This document shows positions 1 to 20,529 of a stretch of 20,540 bases of DNA, piece by piece (within the stretch, counting starts at the first letter, position 1; the number at the start of each line of letters is the position of its first letter). The notes beneath the pieces are model-generated. The model saw only the letters and a list, made by a program, of their open reading frames with translations. It had not been told where the DNA came from and made no database searches. This DNA is from Candidatus Iainarchaeum sp. (lineage in GTDB: Archaea > Iainarchaeota > Iainarchaeia > Iainarchaeales > Iainarchaeaceae), in assembly GCA_043812975.1 (NCBI GenBank), contig JBDRLP010000005.1, positions 1-20,540 on the forward strand, given 5' to 3'. The translations under genes were made by a program, and so were the position numbers.

Positions 1-3000
1 CAACTGCTCCTTCTATTTTATCTTTGGCTTTTTTACTTGCATCTTCCAAATCCCCTTGTGCATCATCAAGATCATCAGCTTTGGACACAACATTTGATGC
101 GTCTGTAACTTCCTTTTCACCTGCCTTCACAGCTTCTTCTGCCTGTCTTTCTGAATTAGTTAATGACTCTCCGGTTTCTTTTGATATTTGACTGGCTGAT
201 GCTTTTACTGTGTCTAATGCTGGTTTTACTCCTAATAATCCTAATGCTGCTACGCCGAGTCCTGTGCTTTCTATGTCAAACCAGTTGCTCTCTGCTTGGT
301 TGGAAGCAGTTTTCCAGTCACACGCACTTGCATCTACAGTAATAGTTTCACTCAAAAACCTGTTTGTTAATGTAGCCGTATCTTTGGTTCCAATCTCGAT
401 TAAATCGAAATTATATCTGCTTAGTGTAAATGGTTCTTCGCTGTTAGTGTAACTTCCGGCTTCATTAAACAAATTTGGAATGTAACCTCCTCCGATATTG
501 TAAGGATTGATATAAGTAGAGTCATCTATTATTGGATCGAGTGTTATTAGAACTTCTCCTATTCTTTTCCAGGAGCCTCCTTCTGGCCTTACTTCTACTT
601 TTATTCCGTAAATTCCGGGGATGTTTTCTCTTACAACGGTTATTTCCTGAATTGCGTTTCCTGGTTTTAATGTGAAGTTACGAGGGTTAACAGTAATCCC
701 GCCTTCGGTTGAGCCTCCTTTGCAGCCTGTGTCTTCGTGGCATAATCTTACATCAACACGAAGGTTTCCGCATGCATTTGAATTAAGAGTAAATATTTCA
801 GCAGTCCCTTGTCCCAGTTCGAGTATTTGTTCTCCGCCAAAACCATAATCTGATTTGATGCATTCTTCTAAATGAACTATTAGTATTTCTGAGTCGATTG
901 AATTATTAGCTTCAATAAATTGCCAGCTTAAATCAGTTTGTAGTTGTCCGTCAATATTAACCGTGAATTTTGCTTTTTTGCCAAGTGTGTTTGGTTTTGA
1001 AACAAAGCTAAGTTTTCCAATGTAAGTTACTTCTGGTTCTACGTTTGAAATTAAATTGCTCCATAATCCTGGTTGTAATAATTCGCTTACTGATTCTCCT
1101 GTTGCAGGATTCATCAGGGTTAGTTCTACATTTCCGATTATGCTTTCTTCTTCCCAGTCTATTGTTGAAACAAGCCTGTCAATGTTCAATAGTTCCCCGT
1201 TATTGTTTACACAATTGTTTGTAAGTTCAAATTCAATAGTTGATTGTCCTGTTATGGTTGAGTCTTCCCATTTGTTTATTGAAAGGACTAAACATGAATT
1301 ATTTTCAGGAAGTGCTCCCAAGTTAATTTCTGTTTTTGTTGGTATTTCATAAACCCATGAAGTTCCTGCATCAAAATTTGATTTAAACTCGATAACAATT
1401 GAACCTTCAACCACTTGCGGTTCTTCCAAGAAATTGGCTTCTTCTCCGAATACAGAAAGGTATTCTATTCCTGAACTTTTCTGGCCTTCAATGGTTGTTC
1501 CTACAAAACCTGCTAAGAAATTATCCATTCTTGCTTCATTAAGAAGCCCAAAAAAGGAACCCGAAGCCCTCAGCTTGTTAATGTAAATCATTTCCCCTAT
1601 TAAATTTTCAATGCTGATAAAAGTAACATCCTGTTCTTTTGTATTTCTTGTTAGAGAATGGATTATTTCTTTAGGATTAAATTTCGCGATTTCGCTACTT
1701 ATTTTTATTTCGATTGTTTTTGGATTCAAACCTGGTTTTTCTGCTTTTATAGAAATCTTGGTTCCGAGAGAAGAAGCAGGAATGCTTATTTCAGCAATAC
1801 CTTCTCCGTTTGTTGTTCCTGTGAATGTTTGTTCGCTTTGATCTGGGGCGATTTTTTTAACAACAATTAAAGCGTCTTGAATACCGAAACCTTCTAGTTC
1901 TCCGGTTGCCTGAGTAACAATAATTTTAAGATTTGTAGGAACAAAAGCATCTATTTCTTTTGGGTCAGTAGTTATATCCATTTCTTCATTTCCTGCTGTG
2001 TTGAATAATACGTGGTTGTTCATTATTTTGTTCTGGTTGGAAATAATTTCAAATTCAAGCGAAGCAGGAATATTGCTTTTAGGTTCGATGCTTAACAAGC
2101 CTGAAATTGTTTTGTTAAACCTGAAATCCCCAAGATTTAAAGATTCAATTTCGAAAGTTGGTGTTTCGGAATTAACTTTTTTAGAATCAGCGTCTGTGAA
2201 TGAATAAGAATTAATTATCAAATCCTCACTAACTGTTGCTCCGTCTTGGGTGCTTTTGATGCTTAACTCAGCATTATCATGAATTCCTTCTGTGTTGTTT
2301 GTAATACTGAATTCTAAAGTGTATGGTGAGAAGCTTTTGAGGTTGTAAGGTTCCTGTTCATAAATGCCGGTTGTTTCATTTAGTAATCTGTGTCCAAAAC
2401 AAAAGTTTTCAGAGCAAATAGAATCAATTCCCTCGAATAATGGTTTTTCATAAGACTCGGCGTATAATGCTGTTTTTTCATTTGTTTCTTCTGCTTCTCC
2501 GAGTTCTGTATCCAAAGGATCTCTCAAATATTTTGAACCTTTTATTCCCCAGGTTCTGTAATAAACAGGCAAAAAGGTTCTGGAAGTTATTTCTTTAGTT
2601 GTTTCAAATTCAATTGTTATTTTGTATTTTCCTTCTTTTGGTTCTTTCCAAACAGCAGTAACCCATTTTGCATTGCCATTAGTAATTATCGTGTTTCCAT
2701 TTTTGGGCTTGTAATCTTTTCCTTTTATGCTTTTAGCCCCAGGAGCATTAACTTTAGTTATGTAGATGTTGTCTTGTTCTATGTGTTCTTTTTCGCCTGT
2801 TCTGAAAAATACTCCGACTTCATCAAAATTCTTCGGAACTGTTAACAATAATCTTGCTTCGTATTTTTTTCCAGGTGCTACTTCTGAAACCCATACGCCA
2901 GCGTCGTTGTAAATTCCGTCAAGTTCTATGGTTGGTTTGTTTCCGCGTATTTCATCCTCAAGGAGTACATTGAAGAAAATAAATTTGTCCTTAATAATCT

Positions 3001-4681: not shown

Positions 4682-4682
4682 T

Positions 4683-4689
4683 AAAAAAA
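4683..4689 (-). terminator. Possible oligo-T archaeal terminator for gene B
   Basis: A T7 tract on the minus strand ~60 nt after the gene B stop, immediately before the gene C ATG. It could equally be part of the gene C leader. Confidence 0.2.
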
Positions 4690-4714
4690 GCCCAAATACT
4701 AAGAGTTTTAGCTA

Positions 4715-4728
4715 TTAATAAATATTGC
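4715..4728 (-). promoter_or_regulatory. Putative archaeal TATA box (TTTATTAA) upstream of gene C
   Basis: The minus strand reads GCAATATTTATTAATAGC. TTTATTAA at 4722-4715 ends ~34 nt before the ATG. The BRE is poor and the region is AT-rich, so support is weak. Confidence 0.4.
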
Positions 4729-4750
4729 TTAATCCTGTAAACTTATTTCT

Positions 4751-7700
4751 TTATCCAATGCAAGTACTTCCTGCTTCAAGATTATTTGTCATATCAGAAA
4801 TGTTTCTCTGAGATCCTTGTGAGTCATAAATAACTTTAGGGTTCCACCAAAACTTTGTGGAATTGCTGCTATTAGTAACACAAACCATTCCCGCATCAAC
4901 CAAATCAAATATCTCACTAATTGAACCAATAGAACCAGCAGTGCCTCCAATGTTGCTGTTATAAGGCATTGAGGAAACTCCGTCTAAGCGAACCTTGCTT
5001 CCTGATTCGTCTGCGGAATAAAACTTTAATCCATCAGGACTCTTAACCGAACTGAGTATTGTTTCTTTAAGCGGGTCAGAATAATAAATTGTCCTCAGAT
5101 AAGTATTTCCTGTAATATTTGCATTAGGCCAGTCAACTGCATATTTGTTTTCCCAGTCTAATAAATCATCTTTCCCGACAGTAGCTCTGTCTGGTTTTTC
5201 GTAAAAACTCTGAGCTGCGGGTTCTCCTGTAAAATCATAACAGTTTCCTGCTCCGTCCCAGAAAGTTGAACTTGTTCCAATGTTAAGAGGAACATCATTT
5301 TCAATTATTTCATAGACCGCACTGAAAGGTTCATCAGTTTTATTATTTTGACCTACTTCCATTATTACAGGTGTTGCATGTGCAGGCTGGAAGTTAATAT
5401 TTTTTCTTATTCCTGTCGGATTATTAATTTCAAGAATCATTCCTCTTGTGCTTGGAGAAGCATTCAAAGAATAAAGATCTCTGCTAATTTTTACACTTGC
5501 ATTTGCAACAGGGTTGCTTCCTTCTCCTGGATAACTTATTGCCGGGGTTGTAGAATTATCAATATTCAGTAATTCTCCGTCATTTTCATATACTGTTCCG
5601 TAACCCTGCCTGTCATAAATTTCACCGTCTTCAATTCCTACGAGTCCGTCAAACGGAACCCTGTATAATGCATTATCAATCTTTGGTTCATCAATAAGGC
5701 TTAGCTCTATTTTTATGTCAGCAAGTAAATTATCGTTTGAGTCAAAGAAACCCCATCCCTCATCAAAATCTATTTTTATGTGTGCTCTGTATTTTCCAGG
5801 AGAGGATAATTTTACTGCAGTTTCATCATATCTCTTGTAGAACTTTATTTTTCCCTGCCTGTAATATTCATCTATGCCGTAAGTTTCACCGGAATTTTTC
5901 AGTCTTAACCTGTTAAAGAATTCCGGAGCCTGGAAAAATTTCTTAGTATTATTAAAGTTTTCAAAGTCACTTAACATATCTTCGCTATATCCATCCTGTA
6001 TCAAATAGGTGTTGAAAGTTATCAAATCCATTAAATCTTGTCTGTTGTTTATTCCGTATTCAGGAAGCCACCTGATTCTTGAGAGATTCTCTTCCACATA
6101 GAAATCCAAAGCAGGTCTGCCTTCAATTAATGTTGTTGTTCTCGGCATCCAGCATTCAAGACTTGGGGCAGGGGCTTCATAGAAACCGAGATTAGCTAAT
6201 TCCGCGGTAAGTTCATCCAATATTACTTGCGCAGGGTTTACAGGGCATGATAAAATATCATGGTTTACTTCTATGAATTCTCTTAATGCGTTTATTTTGT
6301 AGTTTGTTTCCATGTTAAACTGAACAGCGTCACAGTAAACATAGTCAGGATTACTTTCATCACAAATATATTCTTTGAAATCTGCCCAATCCCAGTTAAG
6401 TTTTATTCTAGGTTTCATTTCAGGTCCTGTGTAACCAATTCTGTTTCCAACATCGCAGGATTGTGCATCAAATTCAGTATTAGTTAGTTGTCTTTGTTCT
6501 TCTCCGGTTTTGAACCTTAAATGGAATTTTTGGTTAATGGATTGAGTCGAGCTGTCCGGAACATTAAATTGCCCAAAGAATGCTAGTCCTCCCATAACTT
6601 TTGTTGGATCAGCATGAATGTGTTTTGTTGCTTTGAAATTAACTGTAGAATAAACATATTTTTCTTCTTCTTCAAGAGCAGTATTTTCAAATATTATTCC
6701 TGCTGTTTGCTGAGCAAACTGGCCAATCGATTTCATGTCTTCAGTATTCCAGTTGGCTTTCAAACCAGGGTGGCCTGAATCTATTGGCATAGAATCTTCT
6801 GATAAATTAATTACCCAATCCTGCAAGTCCTCTGTAACTGTGTTATCGCGCATATTTCCTCCTTCTTCATCATCATCGTCATCATCTCCAAATAACCCTC
6901 CTGCAAGTCCCCCTCCAAGGAACCCAAGACCCATATACGAACCAAGTACTCCACCAAAGGTTCCCCACTTGAAACCGTTTGCTGCTTCAGTTGCTGCTGC
7001 TGCAGAATCTAAATTATCGCATTTAGCAATTGCCCCAGTATCTTCATCATTAATAGAATTAACAGCGTTTGTACCTTGGTCAGTTGTCGCATTTGCAGTA
7101 TCTCCTGCAGTACCTGCTGCAGTTCCCACAGTTCTATTTAATTTCTCTGTCTCTTCTGTCTTTTTCGCAACTTCAGCCACTTCTGTTGTCTCAACTCCTT
7201 CTACAGCTCCTTCAGCACTACCTTGTGCAGCGGCGCATGCTGCCTCTCCATAAACAGTATCTGATGATGAAGATGCAATTGCGGTTTTTGTAAGAACAGT
7301 TTTTGTTTTTGTTTCTGCTTGTTTTTTACCAACATTTTTAAGACTCTCTCCGACTTTGCTAATAAGTTTCGGTAATCCTCCGGTAAGGATATTCGCAAGA
7401 TTACTAACAGTACTAATTCCTTTATTCCCTTGTTCTGTTGCAGTACCAAGCGATCCTTTGGCATCTTCACCGCATCCCAGCTTTCCTCCGCCAGTTGGTG
7501 CTGCCTGCTGTGCTGATGTATCAACTGAAGTTGCTGAAGCGGAAAGTTGTTCACTTCCTTCTTTTGCAGTCTGAACTCCATTATCAGTCTCTTCGACAAC
7601 AGCATCCACCTCTTCAGTAGCATCACCTGTAGCATCACTCAAAGTATCGGATGCAGTTGCTGCTGCACTAGCAGTAGAGTTTGCATTTGAATTATCACAT

Positions 7701-10700: not shown

Positions 10701-12412
10701 TCAAGAATTGCGTTGAAGAAAATGAATTTGTCCTTAACAACCTGCTGTGCTGTTGTTGTATAACTGGAATAACCTTCTTTGCTTATAACTGCGTAAACTT
10801 TTTTATCAGCTTTCAGGTTTTCCAAAAAACCTGTTCCTTCAGAATCAACAGAAATGATTCCCAAGCTTTCTCCATAATCAGTGAACAATTCTGCTTCAGC
10901 AAAATCAATTGGAGTTGATAGTTTGTCTTTTACAGTAATGCTTACGGTTCCGGTTCCGATTTCAAGAACAACTTCGAAAAAGTTTTCTTTTAATGGTTCA
11001 ACAGTTACTTCAGGAGAGATTCCTTCTGCGGGGTATTTTTGCACTAAAACTTTGTAAACTTTTTCTGGGTCTAAATTCAAAAAGGGCGTGGTATTTCCAT
11101 TGTAATCGGTTATTTTTGAACCAAAGCTTGTTTGAATAAAACCATCTGCGTCAAGAATCATTACTTTAGCGTTTTCAACAACCAAATGTTCATCATCAAT
11201 AACTCTGACTACTAATGCTCCGCAGGTTGTTGGAGTGCATTTTTCCAAATCAACTTCAAAATTTTGTTCTGAGGCTTTAGGATAATCATCTGTATCAAAA
11301 CTCCCTGAATCCATAGGCAGATAATTTTCTTTTGAAACAATGTAGATGTAGAGGCCTCTTTCCAATAAAGCAAAATTAGCTTTTCCACTTGAATTTGTTT
11401 TTTGTTCTCCAACAATAAAACCGCCAGGATCGTATATTGCGATTGTAGCTCCCTGAACAGGAATCCTGTCTCTTTTGTCAGTTACTTCAATAGTTGCTGT
11501 TAATTGCAAATCTTTTGTAATCATTATGTCTTTGCGGGTTCTTTGGTCCGGATTAACTCCGATAGTAATGCTTTTGTTTCCGTATTCAAGTTCAGGATCT
11601 TCTGTAATAGCCGTATAATTGCCAATTTCGACATTCTCAAAGCTTATTTCTCCGAAAGAAGTGTATCCTTGAAACCCGGTTACCAAGCCTGATTCTTCGA
11701 CAAGTTTTACGTTTATACCGTCTAAAAATCTGTTGTTTTGACCGTCTTTTACTGTTATTTCCACACTGCCTTTTGGTGTTTTTATGGTTTGGAGCTCTAT
11801 TAGTTGTTCTTTCCCAAGTATACTACCCCTTGAAGTTTCAAACCCTGATCCATTAATCGTATAAGTAATTGTACCACAACCAAGAGGAGGTTCTACTGTT
11901 AATTCTCCGGAATTCGTTGTATATTCGCTTGGTTCAAAGACTCCGCTTCCTGTGCATCCAAGTGTAATTTCTAATTTTTTTCCAATTAATTTTTTATTAT
12001 CTGGTCCGACAAAAGTAATTGTAACTTCTTTGGAATCAAACAAAGGTTTTGACAATTTTAGATTGATAATAAGTTCTTTAGTAACTGTAACATTTCTTGT
12101 TTTTTCTTCATAATCTTCTTTTGAAGCAGTTATTTCAATTTCTTTATCGAGTTCAGCTTCAAAAGAGGCTCTTCCATTTTTATCAGTTTTTAGTTTCAGA
12201 ATACTATCCAGCCCGCTTATTTCTAAATCTATTCCTCTTAGCGGAACTCCTACTTGGTTGGAAACCTCAATAGTAACAAGAGTAGTGTTGCTTTCTCCTC
12301 CTAAAAATAGAAAAGCAATTCCTGTAATTATTATAAGAATTAGTATGCCAAGAACTACTGGAAAAAAAGGTATGCTTTCATTTAGGGTTTCATAAAGGTC
12401 CTGTAAACTCAT
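4751..12412 (-). CDS. Giant membrane-anchored surface protein, gene B (2553 aa): N-terminal TM, carboxypeptidase-regulatory-like/Ig-like repeats, central helical insert flanked by Gly-rich hydrophobic segments, Cys-rich C-terminal module
   Basis: 7.66 kb ORF. Hydrophobic FFPVVLGILILIIITGIAFLFLG at the N-terminus. Repeated 'V.V.D...P(I/V)..A.(V/I).(L/I)...T...G.A.F...G.Y....K..Y' motifs over about aa 40-575. Acidic, with more than 25 N-x-S/T sequons by manual count. Colinear with gene A. Confidence 0.93.
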   Translation of the reverse strand: MSLQDLYETLNESIPFFPVVLGILILIIITGIAFLFLGGESNTTLVTIEVSNQVGVPLRGIDLEISGLDSILKLKTDKNGRASFEAELDKEIEITASKEDYEEKTRNVTVTKELIINLKLSKPLFDSKEVTITFVGPDNKKLIGKKLEITLGCTGSGVFEPSEYTTNSGELTVEPPLGCGTITYTINGSGFETSRGSILGKEQLIELQTIKTPKGSVEITVKDGQNNRFLDGINVKLVEESGLVTGFQGYTSFGEISFENVEIGNYTAITEDPELEYGNKSITIGVNPDQRTRKDIMITKDLQLTATIEVTDKRDRIPVQGATIAIYDPGGFIVGEQKTNSSGKANFALLERGLYIYIVSKENYLPMDSGSFDTDDYPKASEQNFEVDLEKCTPTTCGALVVRVIDDEHLVVENAKVMILDADGFIQTSFGSKITDYNGNTTPFLNLDPEKVYKVLVQKYPAEGISPEVTVEPLKENFFEVVLEIGTGTVSITVKDKLSTPIDFAEAELFTDYGESLGIISVDSEGTGFLENLKADKKVYAVISKEGYSSYTTTAQQVVKDKFIFFNAILEEEISGDKPTIELDGIYNNTGAWVSQLAPGKRYEARFLLTVPRSFDETGVFFRTGEKEHIEQDNIYITKVNVPGTSQIKGKDYKPPNGNTIITNGNAKWVSVVWDEPKEGKYEIAFEFETDKGITPGTFLPVYYRSWGENGSKYLRDPLDSELGEAEETNEKTALYAESYEKPLFEGLDSICYENFCFGHRLLNETTGIYEQEPYNLKSFSPYSLEFSITNNTEVIHDNAELSIKSTQDGVSVSEDLVINSYSFTDADSREVSSETPTFEIASLSLGNFRFNKTISGLLSIEPKSEFSSSLEFDIISNQNEIMNNQVLFNTFGNEEIDIIIEPEEIGAFVPTNLKIIVTQATGELEGFGVQDALIVVKKIAPDQSEQMFTGTTNKEGISEISIPASSPGTKIFIKAEKPGLNPKTIEIEINNEIVKFDPEEINHSVTRNAEEQDITFISIENLIGETIYINKLRASGSFFGLLDEARMDNFLAGFVGTTIEGQGSSGIEYLSVFGEEAKFLEESQVVEGSIVIEFMSNFDASTSWVYEIPTKTKINLGALPENDSCLIISINKWEDSTITGQSTIEFDLINNCINNNGELLNIDRLVSTIDWEGDEGIIGNVELTLLNPTTGESISEVLQPTLWSNLLSNVEPEVTYIGRLNFVSKSNTIGKKAKFTVNIDGQIKTNSGWQFIGANNSIDSEILIVHLNECIKSDYGFGGEQMLELGQEDTGTFTLDSSSCGKLPIEVRLCHEDTGCKGGSTEGGITVNPRNFTLKSGNSTQEITVARENIPGIYGIKVEVKPEGGSWRRIGEVLITLDPAGTGGGFTNPYAGTGGGYSAGLFSGAGGYTNNGEPFTLSRYNFDLIGTGAKDTATLTNRFLSETVTVEASATDWGNAFDKSNDDDDSSFDIGNAGLGAAVGGLLGAKPALDAAKGSASEASKEAGEAMSKSKEEAQLAAEQAEQSVEDTQAVADKAQELKEGQETLEKTTEVADKAINTTVKASAATVEGACDNSNANSTASAAATASDTLSDATGDATEEVDAVVEETDNGVQTAKEGSEQLSASATSVDTSAQQAAPTGGGKLGCGEDAKGSLGTATEQGNKGISTVSNLANILTGGLPKLISKVGESLKNVGKKQAETKTKTVLTKTAIASSSSDTVYGEAACAAAQGSAEGAVEGVETTEVAEVAKKTEETEKLNRTVGTAAGTAGDTANATTDQGTNAVNSINDEDTGAIAKCDNLDSAAAATEAANGFKWGTFGGVLGSYMGLGFLGGGLAGGLFGDDDDDDEEGGNMRDNTVTEDLQDWVINLSEDSMPIDSGHPGLKANWNTEDMKSIGQFAQQTAGIIFENTALEEEEKYVYSTVNFKATKHIHADPTKVMGGLAFFGQFNVPDSSTQSINQKFHLRFKTGEEQRQLTNTEFDAQSCDVGNRIGYTGPEMKPRIKLNWDWADFKEYICDESNPDYVYCDAVQFNMETNYKINALREFIEVNHDILSCPVNPAQVILDELTAELANLGFYEAPAPSLECWMPRTTTLIEGRPALDFYVEENLSRIRWLPEYGINNRQDLMDLITFNTYLIQDGYSEDMLSDFENFNNTKKFFQAPEFFNRLRLKNSGETYGIDEYYRQGKIKFYKRYDETAVKLSSPGKYRAHIKIDFDEGWGFFDSNDNLLADIKIELSLIDEPKIDNALYRVPFDGLVGIEDGEIYDRQGYGTVYENDGELLNIDNSTTPAISYPGEGSNPVANASVKISRDLYSLNASPSTRGMILEINNPTGIRKNINFQPAHATPVIMEVGQNNKTDEPFSAVYEIIENDVPLNIGTSSTFWDGAGNCYDFTGEPAAQSFYEKPDRATVGKDDLLDWENKYAVDWPNANITGNTYLRTIYYSDPLKETILSSVKSPDGLKFYSADESGSKVRLDGVSSMPYNSNIGGTAGSIGSISEIFDLVDAGMVCVTNSSNSTKFWWNPKVIYDSQGSQRNISDMTNNLEAGSTCIG
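6869..6886 (-). repeat. Poly-Asp tract (D6, followed by EE) directly after the second Gly-rich hydrophobic segment of gene B
   Basis: Plus strand reads atc atc atc gtc atc atc; protein context GGLFG-DDDDDD-EEGG. Confidence 0.85.
8067..12330. repeat. Copy 2 of the ~4.3 kb direct repeat (gene B stalk region)
   Basis: See copy 1. Only in-frame indels were seen: DWEGDEGIIG versus DWEEESIIG, and one codon in the Gly-rich linker. Confidence 0.95.
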
Positions 12413-12435
12413 TCACTAAAAGTAAGCTATTGTGA

Positions 12436-12448
12436 TTATTAAGCTTTT
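12436..12448 (-). promoter_or_regulatory. Putative BRE+TATA (AAAAG-CTTAATAA) for a leaderless gene B transcript
   Basis: Lies in the 36-nt A-B gap. The TATA-like octamer ends 24 nt before the ATG at 12412, the spacing expected for a leaderless archaeal mRNA. No properly spaced SD is present. Confidence 0.5.
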
Positions 12449-15400
12449 TTATGAGGAAATGCAGGCATCTATGGCTGCATCTTTCTTGTTCTGGATTGTC
12501 TCTAATACTGTCTTAGGATTCCAGAAGAATTCAGTATTAATATTTGTGTTGCTTAAACACACATATCCTTCTTTTACTAACTCAAACACATCTTCCATGC
12601 TTGAAATATTACTTGTAGTACCATTACCATTCAGGCGTACTAATTTGCCTGTTTCTGAAGAACCGATTAAAGTAGCTTCATCTGATGATGCATCAACCAA
12701 TTGTAAGTAACTATCTGAATCCTGCGGAGTGTAGAATACTGTTTCATAGAAAACTGAACCAAAGTTAATTGGATCCTGGCAGAACTCTAAAGTATACTTG
12801 CTTCTTTCATTCTGACCAACTAAAGCACATCTTGCACTTATCCCGTGTGTATCAGGAACAAATTGTTGTTGTGACATTACTCGGTCATCAAAGCCTCTGC
12901 ATGTTGCGCCAATTCCATTCCACAAAGTCATTGTGGTTCCTACATCAACGGCGTCTCCGTCTATTCCTGCTTGGTAAATAGCATAAGCATCTCCTTCAGT
13001 CTGTTTATCAATTTGTAAGATTACTGGTGTTGCGTTGCTTGGCTGGAAAATCAGTGTTGGGTTTCCTAAAGCTCTTGAAAGCTTTGCAATAACTCCTCTT
13101 TCACTGCCAATCTGCATTTTGTTAAAGTTATCATTCATTGTAACTTCTAATTCTCCGTTAGTTATCGGGCTTGATCCTGCTATTTCAACAGTCCTTATTG
13201 GGGATGGTGCATTATCAATTAAAATACTGTCTCCGGCATAATTAACTCCGTAACCTGTTCTTCCACTATCTGTTCCTACAAGACCATCAAATGGAGTATA
13301 ATAGAATGGGCTGTCTGGTTCTGCTCCTTTAAGTTTCTCCATTCTAATGTTAATTTTGGCGTTAGGGTTTCCTTCTGAATCAAACAATTTCCATGTGTTA
13401 TCAGCATATTCAGCATCAACTACAATTGCGTAAGTTCCAGGACCTGGTAATGAATAATCAGGTTGACTGTAAGCATCAAAGCCGAATAAGCTTGGGTCGC
13501 TGAAATAGATTCCCAAACCATCAGTCTGGTTCAAGTAATAATCCGGTGCATCGAAGAATCCTTTGTTTTGTGCAACATCAAAGTCCTTTTGGAAGTCTGA
13601 TGAATAACCATCTGCCATTAGTGTAACATTAAACTTGGTTAGAGCAGTCAGGTTTTCTGCTTGAGTTCCTGTTATTCCCGAAGCCTGTAAGAAAAGATCA
13701 AGTCTTGATGTTGAGTAAGGTTCACAAGCCTGTAATCCTGTGTCTCCCGCATAAAATGTTCTTGTCAGAGTGTTTGTAGCAATTATATCTTCACAATTTT
13801 CACAGTTAATGCTTGGAACCAGGTCAGCTGCTGCTTCATAGAATCCTTCGGTTAAATTACTGAATGTACACCTTACTGTTTCTTGACCGCCTGCTGCAAC
13901 AGTTAGTTCTTGTGCTCCGTCAGCACATTCAATAGAATCTCCTCCTAGTGGAACTACTTTTAATGTTACATCCGCATTAACAATTCCCGGATTTGTGTTT
14001 TTAATTTGTGCAATAACATCTACTTCGGTTCCGCTTTTTGCATTTGTTAAGCTAGCTACTCCGATGTCATAGCTTCCGATTTCATTGGTTGATGCTTCAT
14101 CTTCTCTTGGTGAAGGGCAGGTAAAGTCTGCTCCGTTTTGTTCAACATAATCTGTTAATTTTTTGATTTTTTGCAGTAATGCTATACTGAATTGTGTTCC
14201 GTCACAATAAATACCGTTTTCATTATCTTCGTTACATGTATCTTCCTGTATTTCTTTCCAGTTCCATGCAAACTCTACTTTAGGCAGGGCATCGAATCCT
14301 GTCGATCCTGTTTTGGTTCCTGCCTGACAATTGAGTAATGAAAATGTTTCTGTTGTTTCAAGCATTGGAGGTACACTATTAAACTCCAGATTAAATCTTT
14401 GTTCTAAATCCTGTGGTGAATCTTCATCTAATTCTGTTTTGGATTTATCAAGAACATCTTCATCATAGAATCCTAAGAATCCTCCTTCTTCATCAATGAA
14501 ATCTTCCTTATCATAAGTTTTATCAGTGTACTTGTGCCTTACTCCTTTAACTTTTAACTGAGTGTATTTTGGTCTTTGTTCTTCTGTGATAAATCCTGAT
14601 GCGTTTGTAAATATTGTTCTGAAAGTTTCAATTCCCTGTGAAAGTAAATCAGGATTATTAACCAGAGGTTGTGGAACTACTGGCGTTGAATCTCTTCCTC
14701 CTAATCCTTCAACTTCTAATGAAATATCAGAATCTTTTTGTTCTAAGCTTCCTGCTCCCAAAACAAGAGTAACATCTTTTATTTCTGCATCTTTTTGTAA
14801 CAAAGTGAATGAAATTTCGTCTTCCTGACTATTGTATGATTGTAGTGTTCCAACTACGGTTCCTAGTATTAATGCTGACCAAGGGCTGGTTCCAAGAACA
14901 CCCTGCACAAGACCGCCTGCTCCTCCAAGTAAGCCTCCAGCACCGCCAGTGCTGCTTCTTCCACTAGAATATCCACCTTGATTGTATCCGGGTTGATTGT
15001 AGCCTGGTTGATTATAACCGGGTTGATTGTATCCAGGTTGATTTCCATACTGTGAAATTAATCCTTGGATTGGTGGCAAACCAAGAATATTCGGGGCTGC
15101 TGCTGTTTTGGCTGTTGTTGGTATGGTTACTGTTTTATCCTTAGGAACAGCCATTATTCCTTCTAATTCTTCTCCGGAGTAGCGGCGCTCCATGTCTTGT
15201 TTCCACATCATTTCTAAATAACCGGTTTTTTCAGCATCTGTTATGGATCCGTCTGGTCCCCTCCAGACTCCTGCCCATTTCCCTGTATTTTCATAAGTGT
15301 ACTTTCCAGAAGCAAGCCCAACACTAACGGCAGTGATAACTTCCCCTCCTCCTGCTGCACCGCCGGTATTTCCACCTGTTGCACTGCTGACACTTCCAAC

Positions 15401-18400
15401 AGTTGCAGTTGTTCCAGGAGTATTTCCATTTTGTCTTGTAAGTTCATTTTGAACAGCATTGCCTACTTTTTTATCGTTAGAATCACGCCAGTTACCTTTA
15501 TCATCGACTGTATAAGTTCCCGAGTCCACTATGTTATCTTCATCAGGTCCATTATTATTGTTATTATTATTCTGAGGCTGACCAACATCGTCTTCCTTAG
15601 GGTTTCCGAAAATTGTTACATCTGGATCTGACCAGTTAGATAGCATTACTGCTGCCATTGCAGCAAGACCCCATAGTGCGCCGTCATGTAAAGCGTCCAT
15701 AAAGTCTTTGGTTTTTACACGAACCTCGACTGGTTTTTCAACACAGCCATTGGTTAGGCTAGCTACATCAAAACCATCAAACTCATAGTCTGGATCATCA
15801 TAAACATCAAACTCGTACTTGGATAATTGCCAGCACCCAGGTGCATTAATTATTACTTTCAGGTTCTTGACTAATTGATCTCTTCGGTCAGAACTGAATT
15901 GTGGTGAAATGTAAACCGCGTATTGTCCTGGGTAATTATCTTCTGCAAAAATTTCAAGGGTCTGGCTTTCTCCGGGTTGTAAAGTGAATCCTTGGGTTGG
16001 TGAACTAACCAAGACAGATTCTACTTCAAACTCTACTGGTTCGCCGCAGCTTTCATCAGCTGTTATTGTAAAAGCACCGCTTTCCATTTTGTTAATCACA
16101 ATTCTTTCCTTGTCATAGTTCACGCATTGTGCAAGGTTCACGGAAGTTATGGTTGTTTTAATCATGTTTTGTAATATTTGGTCTTCTCCATCAAGCGGAT
16201 TACTTGCCTGAATAATTATATCAGCTTCTCCAACACCATTAACTCCGCCGAATGGAGTGAATGTAAGAATTGCGGTGAGGGTTTGTTCTGGTTTTAATGT
16301 TCCAAGCATTAACCTAAAATAACCAGGTCTCAAAATAACTTCATCTGCTCCAAAGTTGAGTGTGTATTCTCCTAACTGGTTAGTGTTCCATTTAACCATT
16401 GCTTCTAAATCCTGTAAAGCAACCGGTGTTCCTCCGACAGTACAATTGTTCTGTATCTGGAACTCTGTTCTTTTTGGCGATCCGGAAGTAGTTGTAGTCC
16501 ATTCGCTTCTTGTTATTACTAAACAGGTTGGATCATCAACTTCGTTTCCTAAACCGATTGCAATTTTTACCGGTACTTTAAAGACCCATTCCTGACCGAA
16601 GTTACCAACAATTATTACAAGTTCTCCGTCTAAATCAGTTCTTTCTCCAAGGTTCTGTGCATCTTCTGTTAATGCTGTTTTTAGTATAAGTTCTTGTTTT
16701 TCTTCAGAACCAATTGTTAATCCTTTGTAAGAATTTTCAAGCCAGTTTCTTACAACAACTTTGTCAATTAAATTTCTGAAATTCCCCTGCAGTTTAATGT
16801 CTTTAATGGTTAATGCATAAGGAGCAAGATTTCTTACTTCAAATTTGTTATCTGAAGTCATTTTGTTCTTAGTATTCAGACTAACCCCTATTTGTGCAGG
16901 TTTTATTTCAAGTAAATCAGCACTTACTGTTAATTTTACTTCTTTGAAATTATAATTTGGTTTTTCAACCTCAACTATAAGAGTTTCTCCGGGTGCCTGT
17001 GCAGGCAATGTTAGTTTTGCAATCCCTTCTTTGTCTGTTACATCCCAGTCGAGAATATTATTATGCCTGTCTCTTAGTCTTACAATTGCATGTTCTAATT
17101 CAAGTCTTGTTGCTTTATCAATAACTGTTACTGTAATGTCGTTTTGTACTCCTGATAAGTAAAGCTTTGGTTCCACATCAACTTCAAGTTCTTTTGGAGC
17201 TCCAATCATAATCGTCAGGTTTTTCTCAAATACAATTGCCTGATCAGAAACAAGCTGGATGGTTATAATTCCGTTGATTGCATTTTGTGGCGTGAAATCA
17301 GTTTCAAGCCTCACTGATTGTTTTTGCCTTAAGTTTCCAACAGGCTGTCTTTCAAATTCAAAGCCGTTAACTACTCCTTGTGTCTGGGCAGACTCGGCAT
17401 TAGTAAGTGTATACTCAAAGAACTTCAGGCTTTCATCAGGATTCTTAATCCTTAAGTTAGCGTTGTTGTGAATTCTTGTTTCAGAGTTATTTGCAATAAT
17501 GAAATTTAATTTGTATTGGTTGAATACTCTTGCTGAATAAGAATCAGTAACTGAGTCAATCAAATCTTCTTCCTTATCTGTTATTGTTGCTGTAAAGCAG
17601 AAGTCATTATCACAAAGAGTTATGATTCCAATTTGGAAAATTTCCTGTTTGGTATTTGAATAAAGTTCTCTTGAAACACTGTCATCCTGTGGGAATCTTT
17701 CTCTTCCGTTTGCGTCTCCCCATGCTCTGTAATACAAGAACAATTTGTCTGAAATTGCTGCTGATTCTTTTATGAAAATACGTGCTTCAACCTCATAAAC
17801 TCCTGGGAGTATTGCTCCTGGTGCTGAATCATCCCAGTGAAGATTTACCCATTTAGCATCATCAACTGTAAAGTCATAATCATCCTCATCCATGTTGCTT
17901 TCTTCAGGTTCAAACCTTGTTGCTCTTACCTGTGAAGTTCTTGGCGCATTAACTTCTCTTATCAGAAGCTTGTCTTTTTCCATTAAAACGTCTTTGCCTG
18001 TTCTTAAGTGAACTCCCAGTTCATCATAATCCTTGTCCTCAGGTACAAATAATTTGAATTTAGCCTTGTAAGTTTCTCCTGCTTTAACATTCTTTGCTCT
18101 TTGTCCATTAACAAATAATCCTTGGAATTCTAATTCAACAGTATTTCTCAGGATTGGTTTTTCAAGTATAACATCAAATTTCTGAACTGTAGAAATAATA
18201 ACTGGTTTTTTAGCAGTAATGTACTTTGCATACACATCTTCATCTTCTTTACTTACAATCAGATAAATTTTCTTGTTTGCTTTTAGTGTAAATTCTTTTG
18301 AACCGTTAGCGTCGGTAAAATCAGTTCCTATAAGTTCATTAGTTCTTGCGTCAAACAAGCCTATTGTTGCAAATGGAATTTCTCTTCCGAGTTTGTCCTT

Positions 18401-19993
18401 AACATTAACTCTTACAATTCCTTCTCCTATTTCCATTGTAACTGTAAGGTGTGGTTCATCGCTTTCTGTTCCGGAACTGTTGAAGTAAGAAACATCGCTT
18501 CTTCCTGAAAAGCCTTCTTTAAACGCAAATGCATAATAGTTTCCTGAACTAACTCCAAAGAATTCTGCTACTCCGTTAATATCGCTTGTCTTTGTTTTAA
18601 CATCTGCTACAAAGTTTGTTGAAGCATCATACAAGGCAACTGTTGCATTTTTTACAGGATTATTATCCTGGTCAACAACTTTTATTTTAAGGCTTCCGCA
18701 AGTACTTGGAGTACATCTTTCTAATTCAATTGTATTGAATGTTTCACTTATTTTCAGCCTGCTTACTTTTTCAATCTGATAAGAGTCTGCTGAAACAAGT
18801 GCATTGTATTCAACATCTCTGCTGATGTTAAATTTTATTTCTCCATTTTCAGGAGTTTCAAGTGTTGTTAATTCTTCGCTGCCTGTAGCAAAGAAAAGTT
18901 TTACTTTTGCTCCTTCAATTGGTTCATCGCTTGTTTTGTCAACAATTTTAAGTTTAATCTGTCCTCTGATTTCTTCTCTCAGGTTAAGTGCTACTGATTT
19001 TGTTTCGCCTGCTCCGACCGAAATTACGTTAGATGTTTGTTCTCCGTAAGAACCGGTTTCATCATAACTTTTAACAACATAATTTCCCGGAGCCATTGTA
19101 AAGCTTGCCTGTCCTGAGAAAGTATAATCCAGAGTTATTGGACCTACATTAGGGTTTGATAATAATTCTGAGTTCTTGTAAATATCAACTCTTATTCCAT
19201 CAACAGGGTTTCCTTCAGGATCATAAACATTAGTGATTATTGTTCCGTTTTCTGTTCTCGGAGATGATAAGTAAATAGAGTGATCATCACTCAGGATTCT
19301 TTCCCCATTAATCTCGACAAATGTATTTGAGTTTGTAACATCAACACTTAAACCATCGCAGGTGTTTGGAACACTAATAACTGCAACTCCGTTGTCTGCA
19401 GGAGATAAAGTTACTTGAGGTATCGTTGGAGCATAAGGATTATCACACCTGAATCTTAATGTGAAATTATCACTCACAGGCTGACCAAGATCATCCAGCA
19501 ACCTTATTGTTTTGAATGTAAAAGCCTCGCTTTCTTTCTGCATGAAAACGTCTTCGGCCTGAGGCAGTTCAAAAATTATGAATGTGTTTGTATAAGTCAG
19601 ATAATTATTTTTTTCAATTATTACTTCTATTGAGTCGCCTTCATTTATTCCTGTTATTCTTGCAATTCCAAGTTCATCTGTTTGTGTTGTAAGCAGAACA
19701 TCTCCATTACTCAGGAATATTACTTCTGCCTCATCCACGGGTCCTAGTGTATCTCTCACTGATAATGCAAGAGAATTATTACTGGTCACAAACACTATGC
19801 TGAATAATCCGAGAATAATAGCAAGAATAAGTATGGCTCCTAAAGTCAGGAGTAAAGCAAAACTTGGAACAATTTTATCAATAGGATCTATAATGCTGTA
19901 TACTGGAATAGATTCGTCAATTTTGTCCAGAAAGCTGTAATATTTTTCTTCCATTTGGAGGTAGAACTCTTTGAGTCCGTCTAGAATGCCCAA
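12449..19993 (-). CDS. Giant membrane-anchored surface protein, gene A (2514 aa): same chassis as B/C, low-complexity central insert, extra CARDB-like Ig domain near the C-terminus
   Basis: 7.5 kb ORF with a TTG start supported by a GGTGAT SD. TM segment FALLLTLGAILILAIILGLFSIVFV at about aa 45-69. Carboxypeptidase-regulatory-like repeats, e.g. GSLKIKVVDQDNNPVKNATVALYD...TSDINGVAEFFGVSSGNYYAFAFKEGF. Motifs shared with B include CTP(S/T)TCG, YCD..QF, DGYS.D, PFDGLVG, GYG..Y and F(F/W)WNPK. Confidence 0.93.
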   Translation of the reverse strand: MGILDGLKEFYLQMEEKYYSFLDKIDESIPVYSIIDPIDKIVPSFALLLTLGAILILAIILGLFSIVFVTSNNSLALSVRDTLGPVDEAEVIFLSNGDVLLTTQTDELGIARITGINEGDSIEVIIEKNNYLTYTNTFIIFELPQAEDVFMQKESEAFTFKTIRLLDDLGQPVSDNFTLRFRCDNPYAPTIPQVTLSPADNGVAVISVPNTCDGLSVDVTNSNTFVEINGERILSDDHSIYLSSPRTENGTIITNVYDPEGNPVDGIRVDIYKNSELLSNPNVGPITLDYTFSGQASFTMAPGNYVVKSYDETGSYGEQTSNVISVGAGETKSVALNLREEIRGQIKLKIVDKTSDEPIEGAKVKLFFATGSEELTTLETPENGEIKFNISRDVEYNALVSADSYQIEKVSRLKISETFNTIELERCTPSTCGSLKIKVVDQDNNPVKNATVALYDASTNFVADVKTKTSDINGVAEFFGVSSGNYYAFAFKEGFSGRSDVSYFNSSGTESDEPHLTVTMEIGEGIVRVNVKDKLGREIPFATIGLFDARTNELIGTDFTDANGSKEFTLKANKKIYLIVSKEDEDVYAKYITAKKPVIISTVQKFDVILEKPILRNTVELEFQGLFVNGQRAKNVKAGETYKAKFKLFVPEDKDYDELGVHLRTGKDVLMEKDKLLIREVNAPRTSQVRATRFEPEESNMDEDDYDFTVDDAKWVNLHWDDSAPGAILPGVYEVEARIFIKESAAISDKLFLYYRAWGDANGRERFPQDDSVSRELYSNTKQEIFQIGIITLCDNDFCFTATITDKEEDLIDSVTDSYSARVFNQYKLNFIIANNSETRIHNNANLRIKNPDESLKFFEYTLTNAESAQTQGVVNGFEFERQPVGNLRQKQSVRLETDFTPQNAINGIITIQLVSDQAIVFEKNLTIMIGAPKELEVDVEPKLYLSGVQNDITVTVIDKATRLELEHAIVRLRDRHNNILDWDVTDKEGIAKLTLPAQAPGETLIVEVEKPNYNFKEVKLTVSADLLEIKPAQIGVSLNTKNKMTSDNKFEVRNLAPYALTIKDIKLQGNFRNLIDKVVVRNWLENSYKGLTIGSEEKQELILKTALTEDAQNLGERTDLDGELVIIVGNFGQEWVFKVPVKIAIGLGNEVDDPTCLVITRSEWTTTTSGSPKRTEFQIQNNCTVGGTPVALQDLEAMVKWNTNQLGEYTLNFGADEVILRPGYFRLMLGTLKPEQTLTAILTFTPFGGVNGVGEADIIIQASNPLDGEDQILQNMIKTTITSVNLAQCVNYDKERIVINKMESGAFTITADESCGEPVEFEVESVLVSSPTQGFTLQPGESQTLEIFAEDNYPGQYAVYISPQFSSDRRDQLVKNLKVIINAPGCWQLSKYEFDVYDDPDYEFDGFDVASLTNGCVEKPVEVRVKTKDFMDALHDGALWGLAAMAAVMLSNWSDPDVTIFGNPKEDDVGQPQNNNNNNNGPDEDNIVDSGTYTVDDKGNWRDSNDKKVGNAVQNELTRQNGNTPGTTATVGSVSSATGGNTGGAAGGGEVITAVSVGLASGKYTYENTGKWAGVWRGPDGSITDAEKTGYLEMMWKQDMERRYSGEELEGIMAVPKDKTVTIPTTAKTAAAPNILGLPPIQGLISQYGNQPGYNQPGYNQPGYNQPGYNQGGYSSGRSSTGGAGGLLGGAGGLVQGVLGTSPWSALILGTVVGTLQSYNSQEDEISFTLLQKDAEIKDVTLVLGAGSLEQKDSDISLEVEGLGGRDSTPVVPQPLVNNPDLLSQGIETFRTIFTNASGFITEEQRPKYTQLKVKGVRHKYTDKTYDKEDFIDEEGGFLGFYDEDVLDKSKTELDEDSPQDLEQRFNLEFNSVPPMLETTETFSLLNCQAGTKTGSTGFDALPKVEFAWNWKEIQEDTCNEDNENGIYCDGTQFSIALLQKIKKLTDYVEQNGADFTCPSPREDEASTNEIGSYDIGVASLTNAKSGTEVDVIAQIKNTNPGIVNADVTLKVVPLGGDSIECADGAQELTVAAGGQETVRCTFSNLTEGFYEAAADLVPSINCENCEDIIATNTLTRTFYAGDTGLQACEPYSTSRLDLFLQASGITGTQAENLTALTKFNVTLMADGYSSDFQKDFDVAQNKGFFDAPDYYLNQTDGLGIYFSDPSLFGFDAYSQPDYSLPGPGTYAIVVDAEYADNTWKLFDSEGNPNAKINIRMEKLKGAEPDSPFYYTPFDGLVGTDSGRTGYGVNYAGDSILIDNAPSPIRTVEIAGSSPITNGELEVTMNDNFNKMQIGSERGVIAKLSRALGNPTLIFQPSNATPVILQIDKQTEGDAYAIYQAGIDGDAVDVGTTMTLWNGIGATCRGFDDRVMSQQQFVPDTHGISARCALVGQNERSKYTLEFCQDPINFGSVFYETVFYTPQDSDSYLQLVDASSDEATLIGSSETGKLVRLNGNGTTSNISSMEDVFELVKEGYVCLSNTNINTEFFWNPKTVLETIQNKKDAAIDACISS
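14978..15043 (-). repeat. 15-bp tandem repeat, 4 full units plus a partial, encoding (NQPGY)4-NQ
   Basis: Plus-strand units: ttgattgtatccggg / ttgattgtagcctgg / ttgattataaccggg / ttgattgtatccagg / ttgatt. The differences are synonymous. Confidence 0.95.
15551..15571 (-). repeat. Poly-Asn (N7) trinucleotide tract in the gene A insert
   Basis: Plus strand reads att att att gtt att att att; protein context QPQ-NNNNNNN-GPDED. Confidence 0.9.
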
Positions 19994-20079: not shown

Positions 20080-20529
20080 TCACAATAAGCCATCTAAAGC
20101 AGTTATTGAGTCAAATCCAAACAAGAAACCAATAACCAAAGAAGTCACAATTATTATTGCCAGATAAGCAAATATTGATTCAGTTTCATCAAAGAAATTT
20201 TTCTTTCCTTTAAGATCAAGTTTTGCAAGTTGCCCCATAGATGTTCCGCCAATAAGTCCGAATAGAAGTGGCAATAACGCAAGAATTGCAAATAAGGGTC
20301 TTTCTGAAAAAGAACCTCCTATGAATGTCCCTGCAAAGAACATTAACAAAAAACTTAATCTTCCATAAAAGAGCGCTGAAAGGAAAAAAATTCCCAATGA
20401 AATTATTATCAGTTCAACTGCAGGGTGAAAAAAGAACTCTGTTTTGAGTTCTTCAAAAAACACGTTTACAGATATTGCTCCAAGTACATAGAAAATTATT
20501 CCCAGGATTATTGTAAGGCCTTTTGACAT
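20080..20529 (-). CDS. Small polytopic membrane protein (149 aa, ~4-5 TM), unknown function; faint SpoIIM/DUF95-like layout
   Basis: Very hydrophobic ORF with an ATG start and a weak upstream GTGAG. The family resemblance rests only on the helix and Gly pattern; the PHG..E motif is absent. Confidence 0.8.
   Translation of the reverse strand: MSKGLTIILGIIFYVLGAISVNVFFEELKTEFFFHPAVELIIISLGIFFLSALFYGRLSFLLMFFAGTFIGGSFSERPLFAILALLPLLFGLIGGTSMGQLAKLDLKGKKNFFDETESIFAYLAIIIVTSLVIGFLFGFDSITALDGLL

What the first reader, a model, noticed from the sequence alone, without database searches (positions are those of the whole stretch)
1..19993. Tandem array of giant 'conserved chassis + swappable payload' surface proteins: candidate host-attachment or membrane-penetration system
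Seen: at least three co-oriented paralogs, two complete at ~2500 aa, occupy about 20 kb. A and B are colinear over the TM anchor, beta-sandwich stalk and C-terminal module. Their 300-400 aa inserts sit at the same site (after Y.FD..D.A.LTN....V.V....D) but are non-homologous, and each is bounded by two Gly-rich hydrophobic segments. C starts a B-like but diverged insert at the same site. Established: DPANN archaea are mostly host-dependent and encode very large, poorly characterised surface proteins. Inference: the stalk projects a variable, membrane-active cassette towards another cell, with paralogs giving different specificities or forming a hetero-oligomer. Unlike classical polymorphic toxins, the variable part is internal rather than C-terminal, and no immunity ORFs lie between the genes.
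Basis: partly seen in the sequence, partly recalled or inferred. Interest (0 to 1): 0.85.

Follow-up and report, generated by a model that had tools for sequence, protein, structure and literature searches.

The report
Pilus-linked giant proteins with swappable cassettes
These giant surface proteins of a tiny uncultured archaeon are part of a gene cluster kept by almost its whole order next to a pilus-building motor, and each carries a fast-changing middle cassette between two greasy helices that seems to sit outside the cell, which makes the cluster a testable candidate for how these archaea grip or plug into a partner cell's membrane.

Summary
A (2514 aa), B (2553 aa) and partial C share a chassis, and the A and B inserts are unrelated. 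The window is the tail of a conserved Iainarchaeota locus of about 60 kb: a type IV filament ATPase, a TadC-like gene, pilin-like genes and four to six giants. The C-terminal module occurs in 192 of 196 genomes of the order. The cassette ranges from 0 to 1007 aa, and window B and C look like mosaics. The payload looks extracytoplasmic: even cysteine counts in 34 of 38, some PKD/fn3 domains, no toxin domain. That argues against a plain own-membrane hairpin with a cytosolic loop, the reading of several earlier scan notes on other Iainarchaeota genomes, which found this feature before. Best reading (0.4): a pilus-linked contact apparatus whose helices insert into a partner's membrane, VirB10-antenna style. 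Own-membrane anchoring (0.27) and a non-membrane display hub (0.18) remain open. It is not a polymorphic toxin and not shown to be symbiont-restricted. Membrane insertion is inferred, not shown.

The parts
12449..19993 (-). Giant protein A (2514 aa): N-terminal anchor, Ig/MG/PapD-like stalk, cassette, conserved C-terminal module; A-type ortholog group
19787..19843 (-). A N-terminal transmembrane anchor (residues 51-69, KD19 3.03)
15638..15694 (-). A helix H1 (residues 1434-1452), Gly/Ala-rich, KD19 1.31
14900..15637 (-). A payload, 246 aa, low complexity, no cysteine, no Pfam match; includes a 15-bp tandem repeat at 14978-15043
14843..14899 (-). A helix H2 (residues 1699-1717), KD19 1.41
12452..14338 (-). 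A C-terminal module (about residues 1886-2514)
4751..12412 (-). Giant protein B (2553 aa); stalk groups with short-hairpin orthologs, cassette and the next 230 aa group with the long-payload clade
12302..12358 (-). B N-terminal transmembrane anchor (residues 19-37, KD19 3.17)
7955..8011 (-). B helix H1 (residues 1468-1486), glycine-zipper-like, running into the first long payload helix in the model
6950..7954 (-). B payload, 335 aa, Ala-rich, predicted four long helices, 4 cysteines
6893..6949 (-). B helix H2 (residues 1822-1840), KD19 1.28; low model confidence
4754..6460 (-). B C-terminal module (residues 1985-2553); confidently modelled, no PDB sequence match, no Foldseek match at E<=0.001
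2..4681 (-). Giant protein C, 5' part (1560 aa, runs off the contig); recent duplicate of B; its probable 3' part is on contig C23
227..283 (-). C helix H1 region (about residues 1467-1485) at the start of its B-like cassette
   Evidence: alignment
20080..20529 (-). 149-aa small membrane protein; orthologs lie between giants E and A in most mapped loci, so it belongs to the locus

Best explanation
A, B and C are subunits of a lineage-wide surface apparatus built around a type IV filament machine (ATPase, TadC-like platform, pilin-like genes, and giants F, E, A, B1-3). Each giant is held in the cell's own membrane by its N-terminal helix and extends about 1400 residues of Ig-like domains. It then presents, between two adjacent beta-strands and often clamped by a cysteine pair, a cassette of two Gly/Ala-rich helices with a variable payload between them. 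The payload is extracytoplasmic. The most likely role of the helix pairs is to insert, probably together as a ring or bundle, into a second membrane belonging to a partner cell brought close by the pilus, in the way the VirB10 antenna helices cross a second membrane. Paralogs divide the work: strong bare hairpins, aromatic amphipathic loops, long disulfide-stapled helical bundles and hypervariable adhesin-like payloads. Shown by computation: locus, distribution, cassette variation, mosaic ancestry of B and C, extracytoplasmic signature of payloads. Inferred: physical link to the pilus, oligomer, membrane insertion, and that the membrane is a partner's.
For: Locus: the ATPase (PF00437, E 1e-18) and the TadC-like gene (PF00482 in 4 of 4 orthologs, 1 over cut-off) lie on the same contig within about 60 kb of A in 16 of 20 genomes for which I had maps or coordinates. 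Payload side: even cysteine counts in 15 of 16 A and 19 of 22 long-B payloads with cysteines among 50%-identity representatives, against 55 of 59 secreted and 139 of 311 cytosolic proteins of this genome. A composition classifier (cross-validated AUC 0.96) of 34 A and 32 of 33 long-B payloads extracellular. PKD and fn3 domains occur inside two A payloads. H1/H2 of A and long B are marginally hydrophobic (median KD19 1.2-1.4, none with crude insertion energy below 0, against about 3.0 for anchors), so they should pass the translocon. Short-B hairpin turns carry Lys/Arg in 6 of 49 cases against 334 of 526 loops in this genome's polytopic proteins, unlike a cytosol-facing turn. Clamp cysteines are both present in 57, both absent in 11, discordant in 7 of 75. 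VirB10 precedent: passages of PMC9371333. Sec-secreted hairpin toxins exist: passages of PMC3639968.
Against: Short-B H2 is a strong transmembrane-like helix (median KD19 2.46; 37 of 57 with crude insertion energy below 0), which by default would stop in the cell's own membrane. N-x-S/T sequons are not enriched in payloads (ratios 1.01 and 0.77 against 1.26-1.27 in stalks; no clear excess). Window A's own payload has no cysteine, so its placement rests on composition and on orthologs, and the classifier was trained on mostly folded proteins. Moving a folded, disulfide-rich payload of up to 1000 aa across a foreign membrane is hard to picture. In family f9 (3 of the 20 genomes) the giants are unlinked from the ATPase. 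No host is known, and the family is near-universal in an order that includes a possibly independent species. E, G and one G214 giant have no hairpin at the site. Related genomes are not independent samples.
Confidence: 0.4

Rival explanations
1. Second anchor in the cell's own membrane. The stalk arches back; short-B hairpins are ordinary translocon-inserted helix pairs, while the weaker A and long-B helices lie on or dip into the outer leaflet, leaving the payload outside. The giants form a basket or scaffold around the pilus base.
For: Short-B H2 is strongly hydrophobic (54 of 57 at KD19>=1.6) and is followed by acidic residues. The hairpin can be lost without changing topology (8 of 98 B-types have 0-54 aa). 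Several earlier scan notes reached this reading (unchecked leads, not support).
Against: If the helices fully cross the own membrane the payload is cytosolic, which conflicts with cysteine parity, PKD/fn3 domains and composition. Short-B turns lack the expected Lys/Arg. The re-entrant version needs homologous helices to take different topologies in different paralogs.
Confidence: 0.27
2. No bilayer at all. The Gly/Ala helices of several paralogs pack against each other as the hydrophobic core of a tip or hub, and the cassette is simply a display site for variable adhesin or decoy domains under virus or host pressure.
For: Payloads look like adhesin material. Paralog G carries a 681-aa insert without hydrophobic helices at the same site, with a weak VWA match (E 0.008). 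The B payload gives weak matches to trypanosome surface receptors (Z 11.0).
Against: Uncharged runs of median 46 residues in short-B inserts (29 of 57 at 45 or more, against 24 of 145 polytopic proteins) are very long for a soluble core, and the Trp/Phe-rich tiny loops look like membrane-interface elements.
Confidence: 0.18
3. Iainarchaeales have two membranes. The giants span a periplasm and the helix pairs cross the cell's own outer membrane, displaying payloads on the surface and forming the pilus exit channel.
For: This fits all topology data at once: chassis and payload both extracytoplasmic yet separated by membrane helices. It is the VirB10 arrangement. The DPANN lineage Altiarchaeota has two membranes with a periplasm of about 32 nm, and its hami resemble S-layer proteins (PMC4460559, title and passages).
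Against: S-layer family PF05124 matches 75 of 89 phylum genomes including this one, which points to a one-membrane, S-layer envelope. I found no image of an Iainarchaeota envelope in my searches.
Confidence: 0.08
4. Contact-dependent toxin or effector delivery: the helices translocate an internal toxic payload, or form a lytic pore like tripartite alpha-pore-forming toxins.
For: The B payload model aligns to the AhlB pore (Z 13.1, rmsd 4.5, 243 aligned), HblL1 and AhlC (Z 11.8). Several hairpin-bearing paralogs share one operon.
Against: Generic bundles score as high (designed Maquette-3 Z 14.5, talin 13.1, TTYH3 12.9). The hydrophobic helices lie at the two ends of the bundle, not mid-bundle. 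No enzyme or toxin domain in 66 payloads. No room for immunity genes between A, B and C.
Confidence: 0.05

Closest known systems
Archaeal type IV pilus loci with large adhesin or S-layer-like accessory proteins (Makarova et al. 2016, PMC4858521; passages read)
   Same: ATPase, TadC-like gene, several pilin-like genes and large secreted or anchored proteins in one conserved locus.
   Different: Four to six paralogous 2,200-3,300 aa N-anchored giants with an internal helix-pair cassette; no DUF2341 match in the Pfam scans; my term search of that paper found no mention of Diapherotrites or DPANN.
VirB10/TrbI antenna of type IV secretion systems (PMC9371333; passages read)
   Same: N-terminal anchor in the first membrane, long linker, and a two-helix insertion whose loop lies beyond a second membrane; size-variable relatives such as CagY.
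   Different: No PF03743 match in the genome; Ig-like stalk; linked to a type IV filament ATPase; several paralogs; no outer membrane known. It may work like VirB10 but is not one.
Omnitrophota giant proteins next to T2SS/pilin loci (10.1101/2023.11.21.568195; passages read)
   Same: Giant genes beside a conserved secretion/pilin locus in small, host-associated cells.
   Different: Those exceed 10,000-30,000 aa and carry enzyme domains; these are about 2,500 aa with no enzyme domain found. That paper has no mention of DPANN or Diapherotrites.
ClyA-family tripartite alpha-pore-forming toxins (Ahl, Hbl/Nhe, Mak)
   Same: Long helical bundle, Gly/Ala-rich hydrophobic helices, several components in one operon, Sec export.
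   Different: Membrane-tethered on a 1400-aa stalk; helices flank the bundle; fold scores tie with generic bundles; most B-types have no bundle.
Nanobdellota attachment organelle (PMC11420986 and 10.64898/2026.06.04.730037; passages read)
   Same: Large envelope machine with a filament that contacts the host; its proteins are stated to be unknown.
   Different: Seen in another DPANN phylum; I could not test those genomes, so no link is shown.
Polymorphic toxin systems (CdiA, Rhs; features recalled, not from a call)
   Same: Conserved delivery chassis, variable cargo, recombination between paralogs.
   Different: Variable part is internal, the C-terminus is conserved, no toxin domain was found and no immunity gene lies between the window genes.

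Membership tests
Type IV filament system (locus level) | PilB/VirB11-type ATPase | tested here: met
   PF00437, 67 bits, cut-off 24.9; N-terminal part found in 180 of 204 phylum genomes
Type IV filament system (locus level) | TadC/PilC platform protein | tested here: met
   PF00482 in 4 of 4 orthologs, 1 over cut-off; no match in the truncated 610-aa piece from this genome
Type IV filament system (locus level) | Pilins with class III signal peptides | tested here: inconclusive
   A loose N-terminal pattern matches 6 of 7 small genes; one weak ComGF match, E 0.0005; no Pfam pilin match
Type IV filament system (locus level) | Giants physically part of the machine | not testable with these tools
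   Only gene linkage: 16 of 20 genomes linked, 3 unlinked, 1 undetermined
VirB10/TrbI | TrbI domain PF03743 | tested here: not met
   0 matches in this genome; control rang in 2 of 14 genomes
VirB10/TrbI | N-anchor, linker and two-helix insertion between beta-strands | tested here: met
   Hydropathy and model secondary structure
VirB10/TrbI | Shared C-terminal fold | tested here: inconclusive
   The flanking domain was not folded alone; whole-model searches were filled by other domains
VirB10/TrbI | Ring of helix pairs crossing a second membrane | not testable with these tools
   Needs structure or imaging
ClyA-family alpha-pore-forming toxins | Long helical bundle fold | tested here: inconclusive
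   Z 13.1 to AhlB, tied with talin and below a designed bundle
ClyA-family alpha-pore-forming toxins | Soluble secreted subunit with a mid-bundle hydrophobic hairpin (recalled) | tested here: not met
   Anchored 2,500-aa protein; hydrophobic helices at both ends of the bundle
Polymorphic toxin systems | Variable C-terminal toxin domain | tested here: not met
   C-terminal module is the conserved part; 0 toxin or enzyme matches in 66 payloads
Polymorphic toxin systems | Adjacent cognate immunity gene | tested here: not met
   Gaps of 36 and 69 bp between A, B and C; the small membrane genes flanking the array were not tested for immunity
Archaeal S-layer proteins (PF05123/PF05124) | S_layer_N or S_layer_C domains | tested here: not met
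   None in A, B or C; PF05124 matches other genes of this genome
Omnitrophota archaeovorins | [quoted passage not shown] | tested here: not met
   About 2,500 aa; Pfam shows Ig-like domains only

The most novel reading that the evidence does not exclude
The locus encodes an undescribed archaeal envelope-spanning machine: a type IV filament motor surrounded by a mixed ring of giant paralogs whose glycine-rich helix pairs cross a second membrane, either a partner cell's or an unrecognised outer membrane of Iainarchaeales, with swappable payloads placed on the far side. It would be a genetic candidate for a DPANN attachment or conduit organelle and an archaeal counterpart of the VirB10 principle, evolved independently.
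Probability: 0.35. Interest if true: 0.92.

Novelty: new variant of a known kind. Interest (0 to 1): 0.72.

Why it matters
The proteins that build DPANN attachment structures are stated to be unknown (PMC11420986). Here a whole order keeps a locus of about 60 kb, roughly a twentieth of a 1.2-Mb genome, that joins a pilus motor to giant proteins with a membrane-like helix pair and a swappable, outward-looking payload. It yields concrete tests: which side of the membrane the payload lies on, whether the cassette enters liposomes, and whether these cells have a second membrane. The C-terminal module has no Pfam, PDB-sequence or clear fold match and is a structural target in its own right. If the helices only anchor to the cell's own membrane, it remains an undescribed pilus-associated scaffold with antigen-like variation.

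Tried and rejected
Complex prediction of the A and B C-terminal modules gave no answer, score 0.00, neither support nor evidence against. Sequencing-run search listed no RNA holder and only small DNA shares; I did not lay reads. PDB sequence search with the C-module profile found 0 matches at E<=1. Foldseek found no match at E<=0.001 in PDB or BFVD for the B model (best viral rows were tape-measure-like helices); the C-module was not folded alone, so a new fold is not shown. VirB10 structures were not among the listed rows of any fold search. ESM Atlas gave no usable hit for the C-module and only sub-0.8 leads, one named glycine zipper, for the short-hairpin domain. The D-x-N motif, a lead from an earlier scan note, is depleted in payloads and C-modules, not enriched; I do not rest on it. 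I first read F's Cys-free loop (13 of 15 without cysteine) as cytosolic, but the classifier is split, 9 of 15 extracellular, so I dropped that. A VWA domain in G was seen by eye; Pfam and PDB searches did not confirm it and NCBIfam is weak. 'Absent outside the order' was rejected as a statement about the system: the C-module is not found in 19 of 19 such genomes, but G214 keeps the locus with diverged giants and G200, G204 and G205 have shorter relatives beside the ATPase. Free shuffling of payloads was rejected: long versus not-long changes only 6 times on a 93-row stalk tree. The architecture of the f9 genes was not examined, and other DPANN phyla were not searched by genome. Literature: nine searches, six of them naming this lineage, listed no paper on this locus; subscription papers and preprint supplements were not visible and may bear on this.
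Full report
OBSERVATION. The window is the whole of contig C5 of a 1.24-Mb, 94%-complete genome. It holds three minus-strand giants, A (2514 aa), B (2553 aa) and C (1560 aa, open), and a 149-aa membrane protein upstream. Pfam sees only Ig-like domains in the N-terminal part. A and B align over stalk and C-terminal module but not over their inserts (score 29 against 28.5 +/- 9.8 shuffled). Each insert is bounded by two Gly/Ala-rich segments much weaker than the N-terminal anchor.

MORE COPIES AND THE LOCUS. The genome holds the probable rest of C and a gene D on C23, E and F on C14 (E continuing on C61), and a stand-alone G on C13. Gene maps of well-assembled relatives show one recurring order: a 1,500-aa secreted protein, pilin-like genes, a TadC-like gene and an ATPase on one side; an exosortase/archaeosortase-family gene, F, a long pilin-like gene, E, the 149-aa gene, A and one to three B genes on the other (part's output was cut). 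The ATPase matches PF00437, the platform gene PF00482 in 4 of 4 orthologs, and the sortase-like gene TIGR04178. The pilin label rests on a loose N-terminal pattern in 6 of 7 genes and one weak ComGF match. ATPase and A lie on one contig within about 60 kb in 16 of 20 genomes with maps or coordinates, are unlinked in 3 (family f9) and undetermined in 1. I chose these genomes for long contigs.

DISTRIBUTION. B's C-terminal part matched 185 of 215 phylum genomes. A profile recovered 7 of the 30 misses, giving 192 of 196 within the order and 0 of 19 outside it. Outside the order the locus persists with diverged giants in G214 and shorter relatives in G200, G204 and G205; none was seen beside the ATPase in G208. 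Named records are mostly Ca. Iainarchaeum, Diapherotrites or unnamed archaea, with a few carrying other submitter labels that I did not resolve. The profile finds 855 proteins among 1.84 billion representatives. One named carrier is Ca. Iainarchaeum andersonii, which a review lists as possibly independent (PMC6349945, passages). The family is therefore core to the order and not shown to track symbiosis.

THE CASSETTE. Of 40 A-type and 103 B-type ORFs, both flanks were found in 36 and 98; the other 9 were dropped. A inserts span 105-1007 aa, with two marginal helices around a payload; 31 of 35 payloads have no BLAST relative in the set, even where chassis identity is 63-66%. B inserts fall into three classes: 57 short hydrophobic hairpins, 33 long Ala-rich inserts and 8 tiny loops, several rich in Trp and Phe. 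Among 100 of 150 library representatives with both flanks, both helices reach KD19 0.9 in 19 of 25 A, 15 of 25 long-B and 36 of 43 short-B proteins (this set overlaps the first). The flanking cysteines are gained and lost together (57 both, 11 neither, 7 discordant); window B lacks both.

IS IT SWAPPED? On a 93-row stalk tree the three classes need 12 changes, and long versus not-long needs 6, so inheritance is mostly vertical with repeated switches. Window B and C are one such case. Their stalks group with the short-hairpin ortholog of the same genus, and grouping with the long clade is rejected (AU p 0.0026). The 230 aa after the insert group with the long clade (support 99; AU p 0.047 against the short clade), and the last 450 aa return to the short clade (96) without rejecting the alternative (p 0.495). 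This fits replacement of the cassette and its neighbouring domain from a long-type paralog. The trees were quick searches without a mixture model, and B and C have a long stem and an unusual composition.

STRUCTURE. The model of B residues 1356-2553 (mean pLDDT 83) places the insert between two beta-strands, as four long helices with H1 running into the first; H2 has low confidence; the C-module is confident. The model of a short-hairpin ortholog shows a chain of beta-sandwiches and a low-confidence hairpin. Stalk domains resemble macroglobulin, PapD/ASH and adhesin Ig domains. The helical payload ties between designed bundles, talin, TTYH3 and tripartite pore-forming toxins, which is a common arrangement and no assignment. 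I could not read coordinates, so the position of the hairpin relative to the anchor is unknown.

WHICH SIDE IS THE PAYLOAD ON? Five earlier scan notes concern this or a neighbouring feature in other genomes; most favoured a hairpin in the cell's own membrane. That predicts a cytosolic payload, which I tested. Payload cysteine counts are even in 15 of 16 A and 19 of 22 long-B representatives (12 of 14 and 24 of 33 in the locus set), like this genome's secreted proteins (55 of 59) and unlike its cytosolic ones (139 of 311). Lys+Arg is about 7-8% in payloads, 8% in secreted and 16% in cytosolic proteins, and a composition classifier of 67 payloads extracellular. Two payloads contain PKD or fn3 domains and none of 66 an enzyme or toxin domain. 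Short-hairpin turns rarely carry Lys/Arg (6 of 49 against 334 of 526 control loops). Against this: sequons are not enriched in payloads, window A's payload has no cysteine, low-complexity cytosolic loops could fool the classifier, and short-B H2 is hydrophobic enough to stop in the translocon (crude scale, values recalled).

MECHANISM. Chassis and payload both look extracytoplasmic, yet membrane-like helices separate them. Either the helices cross a second membrane, or they do not cross one at all. VirB10 shows the first design: two-helix bundles form a ring in the outer membrane and a tag between the helices is extracellular (PMC9371333, passages). Sec-exported toxins with hydrophobic tongues show that such segments can escape the producer's membrane (PMC3639968, passages). 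An own outer membrane would fit best topologically, but S-layer-family genes in 75 of 89 genomes argue for a one-membrane envelope, with the caveat that hami of the two-membrane Altiarchaeum resemble S-layer proteins (PMC4460559, title and passages). I therefore put a partner's membrane first (0.4), then own-membrane anchoring with the payload left outside (0.27), a non-membrane display hub (0.18), an own outer membrane (0.08) and toxin delivery (0.05). The link to the pilus is genetic only.

KNOWN SYSTEMS AND NOVELTY. At locus level this is a type IV filament system with large accessory proteins, a known kind (PMC4858521, passages). The giants fail the tested features of VirB10, ClyA-family toxins, polymorphic toxins, S-layer proteins and Omnitrophota giants (10.1101/2023.11.21.568195, passages). 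Imaged DPANN contact structures lack identified proteins (PMC11420986; PMC11329633; 10.64898/2026.06.04.730037; passages only). I also read passages of 10.1101/2024.05.28.596244 on DPANN S-layers. Nine literature searches, seen as listings with abstract starts, showed no description of this locus.

VERDICT. New variant of a known kind, interest 0.72; 0.92 if the helices are shown to cross a second membrane.

Noticed in passing
L002:6398-14797 (G000 C14, giant F): F has its own hydrophobic helices near the C-terminus, with a cysteine pair followed by a roughly 370-aa loop that lacks cysteine in 13 of 15 aligned rows and has 11-14% Lys+Arg, unlike A and B payloads; its side of the membrane is unresolved.
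   Followed up: partly
L003:5551-12705 (G000 C13, paralog G): Stand-alone paralog with a 681-aa insert at the cassette site, no hydrophobic helices and a weak VWA-like match; similar genes occur in many relatives.
   Followed up: partly
L004:6948-11468 (G000 C14): 1507-aa secreted protein at the pilin end of the locus with a central Gly/Ala-rich hydrophobic pair; orthologs also occur in other orders of the class.
   Followed up: partly
L002:15232-15795 (G000 C14): Exosortase/archaeosortase-family gene between the ATPase and F in many genomes; its substrate is unknown.
   Followed up: partly
L001:9851-11700 (G000 C23): Five small membrane-protein genes follow D; similar genes follow the last B gene in relatives. 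They could be scaffold, chaperone or immunity proteins.
   Followed up: no
short-hairpin B orthologs, e.g. L046:1911-8729: 17 of 57 short hairpins carry a Cys-x-x-Cys motif inside the insert, often near the turn.
   Followed up: no
L102:9685-18657, L090:3043-10752, L098:9725-17230: A-type payloads made of cysteine-rich repeats (74, 26 and 14 cysteines) with no Pfam match.
   Followed up: partly
L216-L219 (G027) and L250-L253 (G031): In family f9 the ATPase sits next to the S-layer-family gene and far from the giants, so the locus has been split.
   Followed up: partly
L002:1-5139 (giant E), about residues 1290-1420; window 8180-8270 in B: A Tyr/Gly/Asn-rich low-complexity loop in E and a small Gly-rich loop in B and C just before the cassette mark further insertion-tolerant sites.
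   Followed up: no
G000 C44:38828-41932 and C21 near 13630-13947: A 1035-aa and a 322-aa ORF match S-layer family PF05124; whether they form a lattice or a hami-like filament was not tested.
   Followed up: no
L220-L223 (G214): A genome of another order keeps the locus order with giants of 2765 and 2079 aa that lack the C-terminal module match; the longer one has F-like hydrophobic helices, the shorter none.
   Followed up: partly
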